Positions 3,481 to 64,000 of a stretch of DNA of 64,000 nt are shown piece by piece. Every line of letters starts with the position of its first letter. Within the stretch, counting starts at the first letter, position 1. This stretch comes from Protoeuglena noctilucae (Eukaryota). The notes beneath the pieces were generated by a model. It was given only the letters and a program-made list of their open reading frames with translations, was not told where the DNA came from and did not search any database. The stretch is from the NCBI GenBank assembly GCA_958009085.1, contig OY253679.1:558001-622000 (forward strand). Direction: 5' to 3'. The position numbers were made by a program, and so were the translations under genes.

Positions 3481-5696
3481 ATGATCAGCGCAGTGGCGCC
3501 CGCGACCACCAGGTGACCGCACCGGGCGCCAGGGCAGGCGAGGGGGGATTCCAGCGCCTCTTCAGAGGTACAGTGGTCCCACGCGGCCACGGGGAAGGCG
3601 TTGGCGTGCCTCACCGCCAGATCCCGACGCGTTTGCGGTGCCTGCCTATCCGCAAGCGGCCTTTGCGCGCGGCCGTCGCGGGGACGCGCGAGAGGTGCCT
3701 CGCGCGAGCCAGCTGACGATCATCGGCGGGGCCGTTGCTGCGGTACCCCTCGGCAGCCCGGCGGGCCCGCTGGCCGCGCTCGGCCTTCCCCCCCGCCCCC
3801 TCGCGGGCGATCGCGGCGCGCCGGCCGTCGTGCGTCGCGATGGGTTGGGAAGGAATGCCGTTGCAGATCGGGGATGCCCACGAAAGGCGCTGAGGGCTCG
3901 GCAGGCGGGCCCCTCCTCGCGGCCGAAGCAGCGGGCGCAGTTCGCCCGGGGAACCGGGGTGTTTTCCGCCTCGCCCGCGTCGCATTTTCGTATAGGCGAT
4001 GGAAACCCTGCCCATCGCGCCCCTTCGCCGCAGGTGTGGGTCGTTCCAGTCGGCCAAGGCCTCGTTCCAGGTGACCCCCGCTTGGCCGCGTCGACGCGCC
4101 TGGCGCGGGTTGGAGGCCACCCGGCTCGCCGTGGACTCCGTCTCCATGCTCTGGGGGCACGTGCGCTCCCCTTGCGCCTGCGGCAACGCCCGGGGGGCAG
4201 GATGTCGCGAGCTGCGACGGGGGACACTCGGGGGGCATCCAGCCTCGACCCACCCTCGCGCCCCGCCCTCCGGCCGCAGGCTCCTCGTGCCGTGCGCGCG
4301 GGCCGCGTGCAGACTGTCGTGCGCGCCGGCAATGAGACGGTGGTGATCGGCCTGGCCGCCGACTCCGGGTGCGGCAAGTCGACCTTCATGCGCCGCATGA
4401 CGACGGTGTTCGGCGGGGACCCGAAGCCGCCCAAGGGTGGCAACCCCGACTCCAACACGCTCATCTCGGAGATGGCGACGGTCATCTGCCTGGACGACTA
4501 CCACTGCCTCGACCGCAACGGCCGCAAGAAGGAGAAGGTCACGGCGCTGGACGAGAAGGCGCAGAACTTCGACCTGATGTACGAGCAGGTCAAGGCGCTC
4601 AAGGAGGGCAAGACGGTCATGAAGCCCATCTACAACCACGTGACGGGCCTCCTCGACCCCGCGGAGGAGATTAAGGCCCCCCGCGTCCTCGTGATCGAGG
4701 GCCTCCACCCCTTCTACGACGAGCGCGTGCGTGACCTCCTCGACTTCAAGATCTATCTGGACATCTCCGACGAGATCAAGTTCGCCTGGAAGATCCAGCG
4801 CGACATGGCGGAGCGTGGCCACTCCCTCGAGTCCATCAAGGCCTCCATCGAGGCCCGCAAGCCCGACTTCGACAAGTTCGTCGACCCCCAGAAGCAGGTC
4901 GCGGACGTCGTCATCCAGGCGAGGGGGCGGTCCCTTGGGTCACGCCGCGCGTGGGGGCGGTCTGGGCGCAGCTCGCCGCGCTGGCCTGTGGCCCCCGCCA
5001 AACCTTGCGTCACGCGCCGCGCCCGCGCAGGTGCTGCCGACGCAACTCATCCCCGACGAGAAGGAGGGCAAGGTGCTCCGGGTCCGCATGATCCAGACTG
5101 AGTCGAGCGAGGTCTTCGACCCCGTCTACCTCTTCGACGAGGGCTCGACCATCTCGTGGGTGCCCTGCGGCCGCAAGCTCACGTGCTCGTACCCCGGCCT
5201 CAAGATGTACTACGGCCCCGACACGTGGTACGGCCGCGAGGTCTCGGTGCTGGAGATGGACGGCCAGTTCGACAAGCTGGAGGAGCTCATCTACGTCGAG
5301 TCCCACCTGTCCAACACCTCGGCCAAATTCTACGGGGAGGTCACGCAGCAGATGCTCAAGAACTCCCAGTTCCCGGGGTCCAACAACGGCACGGGGCTCT
5401 TCCAGGTGAGGGCCGGCGCGGGAGGGGTGCTGCGGGGTAGCTGACAGGCGCGCCGCCGGCCAAGATGTGCTTCACAACGTCGCTATACCGAGCGCCCTCG
5501 GGCCTGAGGACACGACCGGGCTGCTATGTAGCCCTTGCCTGAGCCGCTGGCGGTGCGATCCCGATCCGTCTGGAGCCAGCGCTGGGTCGCCGTGCCACCG
5601 CCAAATGTGACGTGCCCGCAGACCCTGGTGGCCCTCAAGGTGCGCGAGATCTACGAGCGCATCACCAAGAAGGAGATCTCCGCCGTGGCGGCTTAG
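3481..5696 (+). CDS. PRK: Chloroplast phosphoribulokinase, 5 exons
   Basis: Transit peptide split over exons 1-3 (MISAVAPATTRCGSFQSAKASFQAPRAVRAGRVQTVVRA); VVIGLAADSGCGKSTFMRR, VICLDDYH (both redox Cys present), DFKIYLDISDEIKFAWKIQRDMAERGH; intron 4919-5030 is GC-AG. Confidence 0.98.
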
Positions 5697-57146: not shown

Positions 57147-57403
57147 GCTGAGCGATGGGCGGTAGCGTTGCGGCAGGCAGTGGTGGCGCAGGTGGCGGCG
57201 GGGTTGCCAAGGCAGCTGTGCTGGCGAGAGTGGCGTAGCGCGGCGGGGACGGTTGAAGTTTCAAGCTCTTTTAGATATTAGCAAGTGCCCTGCCGCAGCT
57301 GCCAGCCCGGACCGTGCCATTCAAAGCTCCCATGCATACGGCCCCCGTAAGGTCTCTTGGCTCCACCCCACTGACTCAACAACCCCACTGACCCAGCCCC
57401 TGC

Positions 57404-60365
57404 CTACTCCCCCGCCGCCATGACGAGCTGCAGCACGGGCACCACCTGCACGGACTTGACGTCCTCCAGACACAAGGACAGCTCCTCGGGTCCCTCAGAT
57501 GCCAGCACCTGCGCCCGACGCAGCAGCAGGATGCCCGCCGCGAGCTGGGCCACGGGGACCAAGGACCCGTACCCAATCACTGCGAGTGAGGGGCCAGGCA
57601 TGGTTCGTCACTGCGAGAGATGTGAGGAAATGGTGACATGGACCCATGCATGTCTAGTCACTGCAGTACGCGCCATGCATGCTGAGCCTGTTTGGCAGGT
57701 GGAGAAGGGAACACCAAGCATGTATGTGCCGTCTGTGTTGCAAGGAAGACTGTGAGCATTGCTGCGCGACATCGCCCACCCGACCCTCACCCCGGTCCCA
57801 GAGCAGCAGGGTCTGCAGGGACTCGAGGGCCCCCGCGAAGCACGAAAACAGCCACGGGGCCGCCAGCCGTGCGGGGGCCACCCCCAGGGACAGCACGTGC
57901 CAGAAGAGCTCAGGGTCCGCGTCCTGGGGAAAGTGGGGGGATGAGGGATGTTCAGGAGCAGCGGGGACGGTGGGGAGGCTCCATGGGGTGGTGAGAGCCT
58001 GACCGTTGAGGGCGACGACGGCGGTGAGAGCGACCAAACTAGCGACTTACACCAAAGCACACTTTGTCAAGGGCTGACGCGAGTGAGGTCTGACACAACG
58101 CGAGGTGGTCGCACCTGCAGAATGCTCTCGAAGCAGGCGACCAGGCCAGGGAAGGCGGGGGAGGGGTAGGCGTCGGGGGCGAGGGTGTGGGCCTTGCAGA
58201 GGGCCTGGCGGTAGAGGGCGCTGGCTACGGAGAAGACGTCCGCGGGCTCGCGGAACTGCACATCGGGCGAGGTGGGGCGGGTCAGGCGGGTGTGCAAGGT
58301 GCGTGGAAGGTGCGTTGTGCAGTATGACACATAGTGTCGAGGGTGAGCATAGCGTGAGCGAAAGTATTATGTTTGCAACTAATGGATTACATCATGTAGC
58401 CCATCGAATGTCGAGTGGTGGGGCACCACTACACGCCACTGTTACCACACAGTGGTGCCCCTCACCAGGAAGCAGCAAGGGGCGAGGAGGAAGGCGAGGC
58501 CCTGGAATGGGACCAGGCCACTGGGAGTGGAGATGAGAGGGGCGCTGGGGTCGGGAGAGGGCTTGAAGGACGGGTGCGGGGCGCAGGCGCACTCCCTCTC
58601 CATCGTGGTGTCCCTGCGTGGTGCGAAAGGCAAGACACGGTGACTAGGAGATGTCATACAGACACAGACACCGGGGTTCCTTTCTCCTACCCTCGTGCCG
58701 GGCCAAGGGTGGGCCCGGGGTTGACGAACCGGCCTGTCGCGCTCACCGGAGCATGGCCAGCACGACGGCGCGGATGGTCTCCTCGAAAAGGAAGAAGTCG
58801 GGGCTGTTGGCGACGAATTGGACGTCGGCTTGGACGACCAGGTCGGCCGGGAGGGGCGCCGAGGAGGCCTCCGCACAGAGGGCATCAAAACGGGACGCTG
58901 CGGGGGTTGAGGGAGAGGGAGGGAGTGGGTGGTGGGTGGTGTACGACAGGCGAGGGCGAGGGTAGAAAACGTGCTGCAAGGAGACTGCAAAGGGAGGCAC
59001 AAACACGAGAGCAGCAACAGCAACAGCAGTCAGGCAACAGTCGTACCACAGCACCACACGGCACCTGCGGGGCACGTGCTGAGGTAGGCGCTGATGGGGA
59101 CGGCGCTCCTCGACCCATCGGCAGCCAACGGTGTGTCTGCCTCGGACCCAGACGTCCCCGACCCCGAGCCCTTGGTGGCCCATGCCGTGGCGGTTGGCCG
59201 CATGCGCACGGCCGCCAGCTCATCCCGCGCCAGACGGGCCTGCACGGCCGCGGCCGCCTCCGTGGGGCACTTGACGGCGGCACCCAGGGCCAGCGCCCAC
59301 ATGGCGGGTCTCATGGCGTTGGGACAACCCGCCCGCAGCACAGCCCGGGCCGCCTGACGGTCCTGACTTAGCCACGCCTCCACCGCCGCGTCGTACTTGG
59401 CTCGCGCAAAGACAGGGTCCAGCTCGTCGTCCAAGCCCACCTGCGGCGCAGCGTCGAAGCTTTGCACTCTCCACTACGCCCCTGCTCGGGTTGGCTCAGC
59501 GCGATACACCCAAGCGTGCCGAACGCACCTGCTGCCGCCCGACGGCGCCGTCGGGGAAGTCCCTGCGCAGGTCGCGCAGGCTAGGCGCCGCGAGGGCGAT
59601 GCGCACGGAGCTCCAAGGGGACAGGTATGCAGCAGTTGCTGGGTCCTGCATCGGGGTGGGCGGCGTCACGTCCCGGGGCCCAGCCAGGGTGACGGCCAGG
59701 GTCGCATCGACGGGGAGCAGTCCGACCAGCGCTCCCGCGTCCCGCCCGATCGACAGCAGCGCCAGGAGCACCTCAGTGACCGAGTAGGGCATGGGCACGG
59801 TTGAGGGCATCGCTGCCGGGCTCACTCCGGCGCGGCGAGGGGACGGCGAGTCCTGCGGGCGGCGACGGACTGCGTGTTTGGATGTGTCTCACGTGGGGGC
59901 TTGGACAGACGCGCTGGCTGGGTCTCAAGCACGAACGCTTGGTTAAGGGTCAAAGTGCACGCGGCACGGCTGGCCGCATGTGGGGCGCCTCCACACCCAC
60001 CTCTGCCAGAGGCTTCCGGAGATCGCCGAATCCCGGGGAGCGAGTCGGAGAGCTGGCGCGTGGCGCGGCCAGGGCAGCGACGCTGGTCATGCGTGCCCTT
60101 GCCAGCGCCTCAAGCCGCTGCCGGGCGCCTTGCAGCTTGCCCGGCACGTCCGGCACGGGCGCACCCGGGGCACGCGAGAGGTCCGCGGGGAGGAGAATTC
60201 GCGGACCAAGCCCCGCCTGTGGGTGCAGGGGGGGTCGCAAGGTCGACTCCTTCGCCAGGAAAGGGCCCAAGTGGGGCGCAAGCGAGGCCCGCGCGGCGCT
60301 ACCTGCACACGTCCGCGATCTTGCATCGCCTCCCGCAGCTTCTCCATCGACACTTGGCCCGCCAT
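57404..60365 (-). CDS. TBC1D19: TBC1D19-like Rab-GAP TBC domain protein
   Basis: GCPNAMRPAMWALALG, VANSPDFFLFEE, GLVPFQGLAFLLAPCCFL, DPELFWH..LAAPWLFSCFAGAL..LLLWDR|VIGY. Confidence 0.78.
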
Positions 60366-60373
60366 GTCGCCAA

Positions 60374-60670
60374 TCAGGCTGCCGGCGCCGCACGCCGGCC
60401 CTTCCGCCCATTGGCGCGCTGCCCTTGCGCCGGATTCACCTGTGTGAATTGCGAGTTGCGCGCTTGGTGTGTCACCTACGCCATCCGCGCGCAACAGGGG
60501 CGAGGATCGGCAGAAAGGACGCAAATCGCGTCACAACCGCGTGCCATGGGCTGCAGCGTCGCTTGGCTCGCCTGCCGTAAGACGAAATAGTTACGCACGA
60601 CGACCACAACGAACGCAGCAAGGGCGAAGAACTTGAGCGCGGTCGCTAGGTTCGCCCAGGACCCCCACAT
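60374..60670 (-). CDS. Small single-pass membrane protein (54 aa if spliced), directly upstream of the TBC1D19-like gene
   Basis: ATG 60670; exon 60572-60670 MWGSWANLATALKFFALAAFVVVVVRNYFVLRQ; donor CAG|GCGAGC; acceptor cacacag at 60440; exon 60374-60439 VNPAQGQRANGRKGRRAAPAA*. Confidence 0.55.
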
Positions 60671-61017
60671 CGGACGGTTTCTTCGGACTGCGGGCGTGCA
60701 CGCCGCGGTCCAGTCGGGACCCTGCCTGGGTGAGCTGCCCAGACGCCAGTGCCGACTGACTCGAGGCGTCAGCTCGGGATGGCGTCGCCGCTCGTCGCGA
60801 GAACGAGATGTAAGAACACGCCAGAAGCTTTTGGGCAAAGGCTGTTTCGCTGAGACGCGGGGATGGAGTTGTTCATTCTCCCCTGCACCTGGTAGGGCCT
60901 GCGGATCGACTACAGGCTGCATTCCGTGCGCGAGCTTCAAGGTCGCTCAAGTCCGGTCGAGTTCCAGCCCCGGCCGGGGCCCCGACGCTGCCGTCGGTGG
61001 CGCCCGTCGTGACTGTG

Positions 61018-62276
61018 ATGGCGACAAAGGAGCAGCGCATTCAGGATGCCGTGACCATCCTCAGCCAGGGCACCAAGGCCCACGTCCACACAGGCACGCC
61101 TCGCGCCCCAGCACATCGCGTGTGGGCCACCGCCGGACTGCACGTGCCGGGTCCGTGCACATCAACGCCTCATGTGCAGCGCACACGCGCCGCTCGACTC
61201 TGTTACCCGCCCCTGCGGCCGCAGAGCTCGATGAGGACGACACTCCCCTGGTCTTTATGTTCGTCGCGCCTCCCCCGAACGAGATACTGTGTCCGATATG
61301 CCTCGACATCATGAAGGACGCGGTCATCACGCCGTACGGGCACAGCTACTGCCAGAAGTGCGTCTCCAAGTACGCATCGACGGCCGGCCTGTGCCCCCTG
61401 ACCCGCAAGCCTCTGGCCGAGGACCAGCTGACGCCCAACCTCCTCGCGCGCACGATTGTGGACGAGATGGAGGTCTTCTGCCCACACGGGATCAAGCTGG
61501 GTGCGTGGCTGGTGCGGCGAGCTTTGAAACGCGGGTGGAGCCACGGGCGTCACCTCTGCGGTCTTGGTTTTGCAGGAGACAACGGTTGGGTCGAGGACCC
61601 GGACGGCTGCACGCAGAAGATCAAGTTCGGCCTGCGCAAGCCGCACCTGCTGACCTGCCTGCACGCCAATGTCGAGTGCCCCGCCGGGGGCCAGCGCTGC
61701 GGGCCCATCGCACGCATGGGTGAGTTTCTCTTCGACAAGCCCGCCGCCGCCCTCCTGCCGGATGCTCCCGGGGAGTTTGCTCCAGCAAGACGTGCCCGAG
61801 CAGCGCTGTGTCACAGCCCCATGTCGGCCCGCCGTGTCGCGTCTGCAGATGTGGATTTCCATCTGGAGGAGGAGTGCCAGTTCTCGGGGCGCAACAAGAC
61901 CGAGGAGGTGTCGGAGAACTACGTGCGGGCCAACACGACGCTGCAGCTCTTCGGCGTGTCGTTTGTCGTCCTGGCAGCCTTCCTGGTCCTCCTGTTTCAA
62001 ATGGGCGTCCTCCGAGATTCCATCAGGTGAGGTTTCTTTTAATGTCCAGACTGTAGAGCGGTTGGCTCGCATTTGGCGCTCCTGCTGGGAGCAGTCGTGG
62101 CTTGGCCTGCCATGGTCAGGCCAGGCAAGCGACACGTTGCCTCCCCGACCCCGCATCGCAGCCGCGTCATCTGGCCCATCGTCGGTCTGCTGAGCATCCC
62201 CGCCGGAGTCGTCGCCGCCGCCGTCCTGCTGGAGGGGCGCATCGTGGATGCAGAGTTCGCGGAGAAGCTCGAGTGA
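61018..62276 (+). CDS. RING/U-box-like and TRAF-type zinc-finger protein with two C-terminal TM helices (putative membrane E3 ligase)
   Basis: CPICLDIMKDAVITPYGHSYCQKC...CPLTRKPL..LTPN; HLLTC..VECP..C...HLEEEC; hydrophobic LFGVSFVVLAAFLVLLF and IWPIVGLLSIPAGVVAAAVLL. Confidence 0.8.
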
Positions 62277-62398
62277 ATGTGCTGTGAGTTGTGTGCGCAC
62301 CTTTCGCAATTTGTGTCTGAGACGTCGCATTCAGTACGTGTCTAACGAGTATTGCAGTAGGACAGACTTTCAAGACAGTCGCGTGGCACTGAGAGCGC

Positions 62399-63391
62399 TT
62401 ATGCGAAGCCCCGAGCCTCCTCCTCCCGGCTGGCCGACGCAGGCCGGGAGCTTGCGCGCCGGTCGAGGATGTACTTCTTGAGCTCCATCCACCGCGGCAC
62501 GGCCCGCATCTCCACCTTGTCGCCATTGGTCAGGGTGATGAGCATGTCGCCCCACAGCCCCACGCCGCGGCCCACGGTCACCACGTCCTTGACCTGGCTG
62601 TACGCCACGTCGATCTGGTCGCTCTTCCACGGCGCCGTCGTGATGACGGACAGGCGCTTGTCGGTGAAGCGGTACCGCACCCACGCGGCGCGCCCCACCG
62701 CCGCGAGCGTCAGCGGCAGCCACACAAGCGTCCACGACAGCGCCACGTTGATCGCCAGGTCACCCCTGCGGACAGCGTGCCAGCGACATTCTCACGGGGC
62801 ATGCAGCGCGCTGGCGATCGACGCGACGCTGTGGCATCAGCCGCAGCCACTCACCCGTGCGGGCCGCCCTCCCAGTACACCGTCTCGTTGCTGAAGTCGA
62901 ATTTGGGCGCCGCCGTCTTTGCAATCGCCTTCTTCTTCTCTGCTTTCTTCCCCTCACCCTGCGCGTGGAGCCGGGGGCAGTGTTGCGTCAGTGGCGCACC
63001 TCCAGCCCTCGAGGGGAGAGCCGCCTGCGCTCCCAGCGAGCCCCCTCACCAGCGGAGTCTGCCCCTTGGCCTCCTTCAGCTTCCGCAAGCGCGCCTCGAA
63101 GTCATCCTCCTCGTCGGTCGTTTGCGGCGCAGGGCCTGTGCACACAGCAAGAGCTCGTCCGTGGTCCAACCAGCGCGAAACCCAGCGAGCGCGACATAAC
63201 CGTGCGAATGCAACGATCGCGCCACCGCAAAGGAGGCGAGCGCGCCCCACCGCCTCACCTGGCGCGTTTTCTGCCTGCGCCACACATCGCTGGCTCCTGG
63301 GGCCATCAAGAGCCCAGGGCGCGCTGCCAGCCCGCGATCCGCACGGACGGCAGGCCAGACCTGGCCGAAGCTGCACTGCACCCCCCAGCAT
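62399..63391 (-). CDS. Plastid-targeted membrane protein with a bacterial-type PH domain (bPH_2/DUF304-like, cyanobacterial type)
   Basis: DDFEARLRKLK; ETVYWEGGP.GDLAINVALSWTLVWLPLTLAAVGRAAWVRYRFTDKR...GVGLWGDMLITLTNGDKVEMRAVP. Confidence 0.75.
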
Positions 63392-63834
63392 CCCGTCGCC
63401 GCGCGCTCTGGATAGGACCGAGCTCTGCGATGCTCCTTGGCAGCCGAACGATGAAGCAAACCCGGTGGTGGTAATCCGTAAGGTACAAATAAGGATGTCA
63501 GAGTGCTGCAGGGAGTCCCCATGGTCTTCTTTAAGGAAAACAGTCGATCTGACTCGGGGCAATGTACCCAACATCGCCGCGGACTGTCTGCACCCGGCCA
63601 GCCCTCCCCCCTCCCTTTTCGGTCACCGGCGCACCTTGGTATAAGGTGGGGCGCTGTCGCGGGCTGATGGCGAGGGGTTGGCCGACCCCCTGCTCTGCAC
63701 GGTCGGCCGCAGCCGACCCCTTCCGCACTGGACAGCAATGTGGGTGTCATGAGATCGATACTGCCTTCGACGGGATCTCTCGGTCTCCCGGCGCTCGCAG
63801 GTCCTGCCTGGGCACCTCGCTGTGAGCCGCCAGG

Positions 63835-63896
63835 ATGGGACACAACGACATCTGGCTCTCTCACCCTACGAAGGACGCGCGGGGGGGGCGGAGGTG
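63835..63896 (+). CDS. RPS29: 40S ribosomal protein S29 (uS14), first coding exon; the rest lies outside the window
   Basis: MGHNDIWLSHPTKDARGGRR then TG|GTGAG, which splits the presumed first Cys codon; resembles MGHxxxWxSHPxxxGxGSRxC. Confidence 0.8.
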
Positions 63897-64000
63897 GTGA
63901 GCGGGGGCAGGACGGCGGAGCGCGGGGGCTCGGGCCGGCGACTGCCGTGTCCCGTGCGGGAGGCCGATGCCGGGGCTGCCTCGCGTCGCGCCCACGTCAT

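What the first reader, a model, noticed from the sequence alone, without database searches (positions are those of the whole stretch)
60365..60670. Spliced small membrane ORF ending 8 nt before the TBC1D19-like start: candidate bicistronic mRNA
Seen: on the minus strand ATG 60670 opens a 33-codon exon with a clear TM segment (LKFFALAAFVVVVV). It is followed by the window's typical GC donor (CAG|GCGAGC), an in-frame acceptor at 60440 and TGA at 60374-60376. Only 8 nt (ttggcgac) then separate the stop from ATG 60365 of the TBC-domain gene, leaving no room for a 3' end plus promoter. Even unspliced, the ORF stops at 60476. Known: polycistronic nuclear mRNAs with a short upstream ORF have been described in green algae. 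Inference: an unannotated microprotein co-expressed with a Rab-GAP.
Basis: partly seen in the sequence, partly recalled or inferred. Interest (0 to 1): 0.75.

Follow-up and report, generated by a model that had tools for sequence, protein, structure and literature searches.

The report
Algal two-protein mRNA: microprotein plus TBC1D19-like
In this green alga a spliced 54-residue membrane-type reading frame sits 8 bases in front of a TBC-domain gene on one assembled RNA and recurs at the same place in a distant relative, so both proteins are likely made from one message, a new example of an arrangement already well known in green algae.

Summary
Observation confirmed. RNA contigs from 3 of 4 runs (one study) remove the GC-AG intron 60440-60571 exactly. 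One 1968-nt contig matches, base for base in length, a 75-nt leader, the 54-codon ORF1, 8 nt and the 575-codon TBC gene. A syntenic metagenome locus, saturated at synonymous sites, keeps a similar upstream ORF: hydrophobic helix, phase-0 intron just after it, basic tail, 110-nt ATG-free spacer, weak-then-stronger start contexts. So this is likely a bicistronic locus read by leaky scanning, as described for Chlamydomonas and Auxenochlorella.

Limits: contigs are not single molecules, translation is untested, there is only one relative, and peptide similarity is weak (9 of 2000 shuffles). ORF1 matches no family. ORF2 lacks the arginine finger, so 'Rab-GAP' is doubtful; the TBC1D19 label is recalled, and human TBC1D19 is a tubulin-glutamylase subunit. 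The pair was not found in the published lists I could search. This scan noted similar loci on other algal DNA, not this one. New member of a known kind.

The parts
60746..60890 (.). RNA-free gap between two divergent transcripts; inferred shared promoter
   Evidence: X1 contigs end at about 60745 (minus gene) and 60891 (plus gene), from contig lengths and bin depths; contigs cannot show a true start site
60671..60745 (-). 5' leader, at least 75 nt, without ATG
   Evidence: first 75 nt of the 1968-nt X1 contig
60572..60670 (-). ORF1 coding exon 1, 33 codons, predicted single transmembrane helix (residues about 7-25); weak start context (-3 C, +4 T)
60440..60571 (-). 132-nt GC-AG intron, phase 0
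   Evidence: joint in RNA contigs of X1, X2, X3
60374..60439 (-). ORF1 coding exon 2, 21 codons of basic tail plus TGA; same RNA exon (60439-60303) as the ORF2 start
60409..60411 (-). internal out-of-frame ATG (-3 C, +4 G) opening a 71-codon frame that overlaps the ORF2 start; not kept in the relative
60366..60373 (-). 8-nt inter-ORF spacer; ORF2 is out of frame with ORF1 (173 nt between the ATGs in the spliced RNA)
57404..60365 (-). ORF2, 575 aa in 9 coding exons, atypical TBC-domain protein (TBC1D19/TBC-H-like, label recalled); strong start context (-3 G, +4 G)
61018..62276 (+). divergent neighbour: 262-aa RING-type zinc-finger protein with hydrophobic C-terminus (RING label read from the Cys/His pattern); syntenic in the relative
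   Evidence: 4 introns in RNA; 60% identical to its L002 orthologue

Best explanation
A spliced RNA contig carries a short leader, a 54-codon membrane-type ORF1 and, 8 nt later, the 575-codon TBC gene, and this is likely one bicistronic mRNA from which both proteins are made by leaky scanning. Shown: the exon structure, the intron, the spacing, the frame offset, and a similar upstream ORF in one distant relative. Inferred: some scanning ribosomes start at the weak ORF1 ATG and make a single-pass protein with a short N-terminus and a basic, probably cytosolic tail; others pass it and the weak ATG at 60411 and start at the strong ORF2 ATG. Inferred: ORF1 is kept for its product and also dampens ORF2 output. 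The two products probably work separately, as most published algal pairs do; ORF2 more likely acts as a scaffold subunit of the tubulin polyglutamylase complex than as a Rab-GAP.
For: X1 contig of 1968 nt equals the sum of the ten exons from 60745 to 57412, with no other letters. ORF1 stop and ORF2 start share one 137-nt exon flanked by two RNA-confirmed introns. Syntenic locus L002 (four genes in the same order) has 47 of 78 fourfold sites differing in the neighbour gene, against 59% expected at saturation, yet keeps a predicted 63-aa upstream ORF with a hydrophobic segment (48 of 2000 shuffles reach it; 0 of 558 non-coding windows reach 1.6), a phase-0 intron just after it, a basic tail and no ATG in 299 nt before ORF2. 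5 of 7 identical exon-1 residues use different codons, and 3 of 4 shared Ala codons before the stop differ at the third base. Start contexts run weak then stronger in both genomes, as in PMC11291117. ORF2's frame is closed by a stop upstream of its ATG in both. Spacers fold no better than shuffles, z 0.19 and 1.61. The same genome has a TFB5-like gene whose stop overlaps the start of a DNA-methylase gene.
Against: Only short-read contigs, from one study; a contig across two genes shows no single transcript. In X2 and X3 the ORF1 junction lies on a separate contig of lower depth (5.3 vs 8.5; 4.7 vs 11.9), which allows ORF2-only transcripts. No ribosome or protein data. Only one relative, without RNA; its first exon is predicted, and acceptor 5221 scores as well as 5250 (7.5 vs 7.4). 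Peptide similarity is weak: whole 9 of 2000 shuffles (global), 22 of 2000 (local); TM exon 98 of 5000; tail 830 of 5000, not significant. ORF1 codon usage score (-0.16) lies between introns (-0.30, sd 0.15) and ORF2 (+0.27), and the TM exon alone is intron-like. ATG scarcity is not significant (1 vs 1.7 and 0 vs 1.8 expected). The ATG at 60411 would divert some ribosomes. 42 of 579 window-intron windows also reach hydropathy 1.6.
Confidence: 0.62

Rival explanations
1. Same single mRNA, but ORF1 is a regulatory uORF whose peptide has no job of its own; the helix is incidental or acts only in cis.
For: No family, structure or database match for ORF1; intermediate codon usage; 7 of 28 aligned exon residues identical; PMC11291117 calls bicistronic ORF1s a continuum with uORFs.
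Against: Hydrophobic helix, intron phase and basic tail persist across saturated synonymous divergence; synonymous changes at shared residues.
Confidence: 0.15
2. Bicistronic mRNA, but ORF2 is translated mainly by reinitiation after ORF1 termination across the 8-nt spacer.
For: Very short spacer here; a stop-start overlap at the TFB5-like locus of the same genome; PMC11291117 links higher reinitiation to spacers of a few bases (passage); reinitiation would also bypass ATG 60411 (inference).
Against: The relative's spacer is 110 nt; weak ORF1 context in both genomes; reinitiation falls with uORF length (recalled).
Confidence: 0.12
3. Two overlapping monocistronic transcripts, or a mixture, merged by the assembler: an ORF1 RNA with a 3' UTR over the TBC gene and a TBC RNA starting inside ORF1.
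For: Contigs of X2 and X3 break near the ORF1 junction with lower 5' depth.
Against: X1 gives one unbroken contig and no loose ends in the region; no TGTAA or AATAAA in 60200-60900, though none was found at the neighbouring 3' ends either, so this is uninformative.
Confidence: 0.08
4. The TM exon serves as a membrane anchor of the TBC protein: skipping exon 60439-60303 would join two phase-0 ends into a 587-aa fusion.
For: Both junctions are phase 0; L002 has one in-frame AG at 5417.
Against: No such joint in 3 runs that cover the region (contigs drop rare forms). L002 lacks the matching TBC intron, and its AG 5417 scores below zero on the acceptor matrix. ORF1 gets no score against a profile of the family's N-termini.
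Confidence: 0.03

Closest known systems
Green-algal nuclear bicistronic loci translated by leaky scanning (Gallaher et al. 2021, PMC7896298; Duenas et al., PMC11291117)
   Same: Short leader (75 nt; medians 83 and 54), small ORF1 and large ORF2, short spacer (8 and 110 nt; medians 183 and 40), weak ORF1 and stronger ORF2 context, conserved colinearity. Cre02.g091845 is also 165 nt, annotated transmembrane, with an 80-nt leader and 109-nt spacer; Cre03.g155500 is a 61-aa single-pass ORF1.
   Different: This pair is not in the lists searched: the only TBC entry is Cre17.g715400, a canonical TBC protein in the ORF1 position with a 639-nt spacer. No long-read or ribosome evidence here. Homology of ORF1 to the Chlamydomonas TM ORF1s could not be tested (no sequences in the rows read).
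TBC1D19 / TBC-H class; subunit of the tubulin polyglutamylase complex (PMC13376646; PMC3655817)
   Same: Weak Pfam TBC score confined to the C-terminal half and no conserved R/Q fingers, as reported for TBC-H.
   Different: No named TBC1D19 sequence was returned by any search; the label is recalled. The first 163 residues do not match the family profile. A role at the flagellum is extrapolated from human cells.
Small single-pass mitochondrial or ER proteins (COX14, BRAWNIN/DUF4516, OST4, mitoNEET anchor); leads recalled
   Same: Size, one helix, basic flank; the relative's exon brushes MitoNEET_N at E 0.088.
   Different: COX14 and DUF4516 have better candidates on other contigs; ORF1 has no room for an iron-sulfur domain; the OST4 and MitoNEET_N genome searches found nothing anywhere and are uninformative.

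Membership tests
Green-algal bicistronic loci | Host is a green alga | tested here: met
   17 chlorophyll a/b-binding matches in the genome; one resembles LHCII chains of solved structures. The top two hits are long LHCI-labelled chains, and the class was not determined.
Green-algal bicistronic loci | Two non-overlapping ORFs, each with its own start and stop, on one mature mRNA | tested here: inconclusive
   One spliced 1968-nt contig spans both, but short-read contigs do not show single molecules; broken in 2 of the 3 covering runs
Green-algal bicistronic loci | Exclusively polycistronic (no ORF2-only transcripts) by long reads | not testable with these tools
   Only Logan contigs were offered
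Green-algal bicistronic loci | Both ORFs translated (Ribo-seq, proteomics) | not testable with these tools
   No such data
Green-algal bicistronic loci | Colinear conservation of both ORFs in another species | tested here: met
   1 of 1 related locus found; ORF1 similarity is weak
Green-algal bicistronic loci | Weak ORF1 and stronger ORF2 start context | tested here: met
   -3/+4: C/T then G/G here; C/C then G/A in L002. Judged by the general purine rule, not a genome-wide matrix
Green-algal bicistronic loci | ATG depletion before ORF2 | tested here: inconclusive
   1 vs 1.73 and 0 vs 1.82 expected
Canonical TBC Rab-GAP | IxxDxxR arginine finger | tested here: not met
   Phe354 at D+3 in ORF2, Tyr in L002, Arg in 2 of 24 homologues (motif from PMC3392932)
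Canonical TBC Rab-GAP | Conserved glutamine finger | tested here: inconclusive
   ORF2 has Gln414 at that column, L002 Arg, 2 of 24 homologues Gln
TBC1D19 / TBC-H | Orthology to a named TBC1D19 by reciprocal search or tree | not testable with these tools
   Homologues came without names; nearest solved structures are distant TBC1D7 chains
COX14 (PF14880) | Profile match | tested here: not met
   No hit on ORF1; the family hit over cut-off lies on contig C7
BRAWNIN / DUF4516 (PF14990) | Profile match | tested here: not met
   No hit on ORF1; best candidate on contig C21, 24 bits, under the cut-off

The most novel reading that the evidence does not exclude
ORF1 is an unknown, lineage-conserved membrane subunit or tether of the tubulin polyglutamylase complex, co-translated with its TBC1D19-like partner at a ratio set by leaky scanning: an operon-like pair that would tie tubulin glutamylation to a membrane at the flagellar base.
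Probability: 0.06. Interest if true: 0.72.

Novelty: new member of a known kind. Interest (0 to 1): 0.38.

Why it matters
It adds an RNA-supported, conserved bicistronic pair and a family-less microprotein gene that gene finders would drop as a 5' UTR, in a green alga whose introns and gene order differ from those I could compare. With the TFB5-methylase stop-start overlap in the same genome, it suggests that small genes here often ride in front of unrelated large ones. The mechanism itself is published for hundreds of algal loci, so a specialist would not be surprised.

Tried and rejected
ORF1 homologues: Pfam on both exons and the unspliced frame, 0 families; ESM Atlas, no usable hit, and best 0.79 for the relative's exon, within the range of shuffles; solved structures, 0 at E 10; word-indexed protein search, 9 candidates, none scored; no paralogue in the own genome. 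These searches are weak for 33-64 residues, so they do not show absence. ORF1 as the lost N-terminus of the TBC family: no score. ORF2 exon 59529-59852 found no homologue among 6102 candidates; exon 57792-57923 found only itself by words but 65 proteins by full scan. Viral contigs: 61 pattern matches, none related. OST4 and MitoNEET_N genome searches rang nowhere, controls included. RNA structure at leader and spacer: z between -0.51 and 1.61, nothing. Longer ORF1 from in-frame ATG 60922: outside the contig and inside the opposite transcript. A 38-nt leader intron 60725-60688: the contig is continuous there. One control acceptor (6976) was mis-indexed and is ignored; one search's RING comparison had an index slip and was redone. 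No complex prediction was sent, as no binding is claimed.

Full report
Observation. On the minus strand ATG 60670 opens 33 codons to 60572, then a GC donor, a 132-nt intron ending in AG at 60440, 21 more codons, TGA at 60376-60374, 8 nt and ATG 60365. Unspliced, the frame ends after 64 codons. The best 19-residue hydropathy window is 2.19 at residues 7-25, reached by 12 of 2000 dinucleotide shuffles. The tail is basic: 8 Lys/Arg and no acidic residue in 54.

RNA evidence. Four marine metatranscriptome runs from one study (at most 3 samples) hold the stretch as contigs. Laid on 57200-62400 they list 12 introns, including 60440-60571 in X1, X2 and X3; 2 of the 12 are GC-AG. One X1 contig is 1968 nt. 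Ten exons from 60745 to 57412 add up to exactly 1968; one of the nine introns (58898-59064) is inferred from that sum because the tool skipped a repeat there. The contig therefore holds a 75-nt leader, ORF1, the spacer and all but the last codons of a 575-aa ORF2. The ORF1 stop and ORF2 start share one 137-nt exon. The divergent gene's contig starts near 60891, leaving about 145 nt as a likely shared promoter. Against: contigs are not molecules. In X2 and X3 the ORF1 junction is on a separate contig of lower depth, and X4 does not cover ORF1, so ORF2-only transcripts are not excluded.

Host. The genome has 26.3 Mb in 27 contigs and 17 chlorophyll a/b-binding matches, one of which resembles LHCII chains. 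I treat it as a green alga; the class was not determined.

ORF2. One exon brushes Pfam RabGAP-TBC at E 0.01. A full scan with it gave 65 proteins; 19 of them were scanned and all 19 hit PF00566, 18 over the cut-off. A profile of 24 of them matches ORF2 residues 164-573 at E 2.5e-105. The N-terminal 163 residues do not match the family, but they align with the relative's from residue 6 (score 85, 0 of 1000 shuffles), which fixes the start at or just after 60365. The arginine finger is absent (Phe354; Arg in 2 of 24) and the glutamine column is variable (Gln in 2 of 24). PMC3655817 (passages) lists TBC-H/TBC1D19 among classes missing these residues. PMC13376646 (abstract and passages) shows human TBC1D19 to be an essential subunit of the tubulin polyglutamylase complex and leaves GAP activity open.

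Conservation. One metagenome scan gave 1 related locus from 298 pattern matches, L002. It has the same four genes in the same order and orientation. Its RING-type gene is 60% identical, and 47 of 78 fourfold sites differ, matching the 59% expected at saturation. Upstream of its TBC start (5442) lies a predicted 63-aa ORF: ATG 4740, a 293-nt intron, a hydrophobic exon 5046-5143, a phase-0 intron of 107 nt, a basic tail ending at TGA 5329, then 110 nt. The second intron falls after the same Leu-Arg-x residues as in the window. Hydropathy 1.61 is reached by 48 of 2000 shuffles and by 0 of 558 non-coding windows of L002. Five of 7 identical exon residues use different codons, and 3 of 4 shared Ala codons before the stop differ at the third base. 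Sequence similarity alone is modest: 9 of 2000 shuffles for the whole, 98 of 5000 for the TM exon, 830 of 5000 for the tail. L002 has no RNA support; its first exon is my prediction, and acceptor 5221 scores like 5250, which I prefer because 5221 lies only about 7 nt from the apparent branch site (inference). ORF1's codon usage is not convincingly coding-like.

Mechanism. Start contexts are weak at ORF1 and stronger at ORF2 in both genomes. Few ATGs lie between, though not significantly few. ORF2 is out of frame, with its frame closed upstream in both genomes, which argues against readthrough or a conserved frameshift. The spacers differ in length (8 vs 110 nt) and fold no better than shuffles. 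This fits the leaky-scanning model tested in PMC11291117 (abstract, Results part 1 of 3, Discussion part 2 of 3, passages). Reinitiation remains possible with an 8-nt spacer. ATG 60411 would cost ORF2 some ribosomes and is not conserved. Exon skipping would fuse the helix to the TBC protein in frame, but no such joint is seen and L002 lacks the intron needed.

What ORF1 is. No family or structure matched; these searches are weak at this length. Recalled look-alikes were tested: COX14 and DUF4516 have better candidates elsewhere in the genome. My best guess is a signal-anchored single-pass protein of the ER or mitochondrial outer membrane with a cytosolic basic tail (positive-inside rule, recalled), unrelated in function to ORF2; PMC11291117 finds most pairs unrelated.

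Novelty. Gallaher et al. report 87 and 173 exclusively polycistronic loci (passages). Their seven readable supplements hold one TBC entry, Cre17.g715400, in the upstream position; three files were too large to read and may bear on this. The six Duenas supplements have no TBC or GTPase term (one file cut), but many ORFs there lack annotation, so a weakly scoring TBC1D19 could be hidden. A paper search for TBC1D19 with bicistronic gave 0. Chlamydomonas has loci of nearly the same anatomy with other partners. Earlier notes of this scan describe the same kind in other algae, none on this genome or sequence; I did not check them. Verdict: real, probably bicistronic, a new member of a known kind; interest 0.38.

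Noticed in passing
L004:1675-1249, minus strand (G000 contig C2): A TFB5-like small gene (Pfam E 0.0066, under cut-off) ends with its TGA overlapping the ATG of a C-5 DNA methylase gene (E 1.4e-13): a second bicistronic-looking locus. In Chlamydomonas this small gene is part of the REX1 bicistronic locus; whether the partner is the same was not checked. No RNA laid.
   Followed up: partly
L003:1483-2270, plus strand (G000 contig C7): The COX14 gene (Pfam over cut-off) appears to be followed within about 100 nt of its predicted stop by another long frame without Pfam hit; possible third tight pair.
   Followed up: partly
L005:1600-1310, minus strand (G000 contig C21): BRAWNIN/DUF4516-like small gene, 24 bits, with another ATG-opened frame about 210 nt after its predicted stop.
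   Followed up: no
window 61018-62276 (+); L002:4287-3270 (-): RING-type protein with a second Cys/His cluster and a hydrophobic C-terminus, divergent from the bicistronic gene across about 145 nt; its first intron is GC-AG here and GT-AG in L002.
   Followed up: partly
window 57404-60365 vs L002:5442-7660: The TBC gene has 8 introns here but apparently one in L002, at a shared position, while both keep the ORF1 intron.
   Followed up: no
L002:4613-4632: Imperfect palindrome resembling an X-box (motif recalled) in the divergent promoter of the relative; no counterpart noticed by eye in the window.
   Followed up: no
window 62400-63900; L002:1100-3190: A ribosomal protein S29-like gene and a small PH-like, probably chloroplast, gene (labels recalled) complete the four-gene synteny block.
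   Followed up: no
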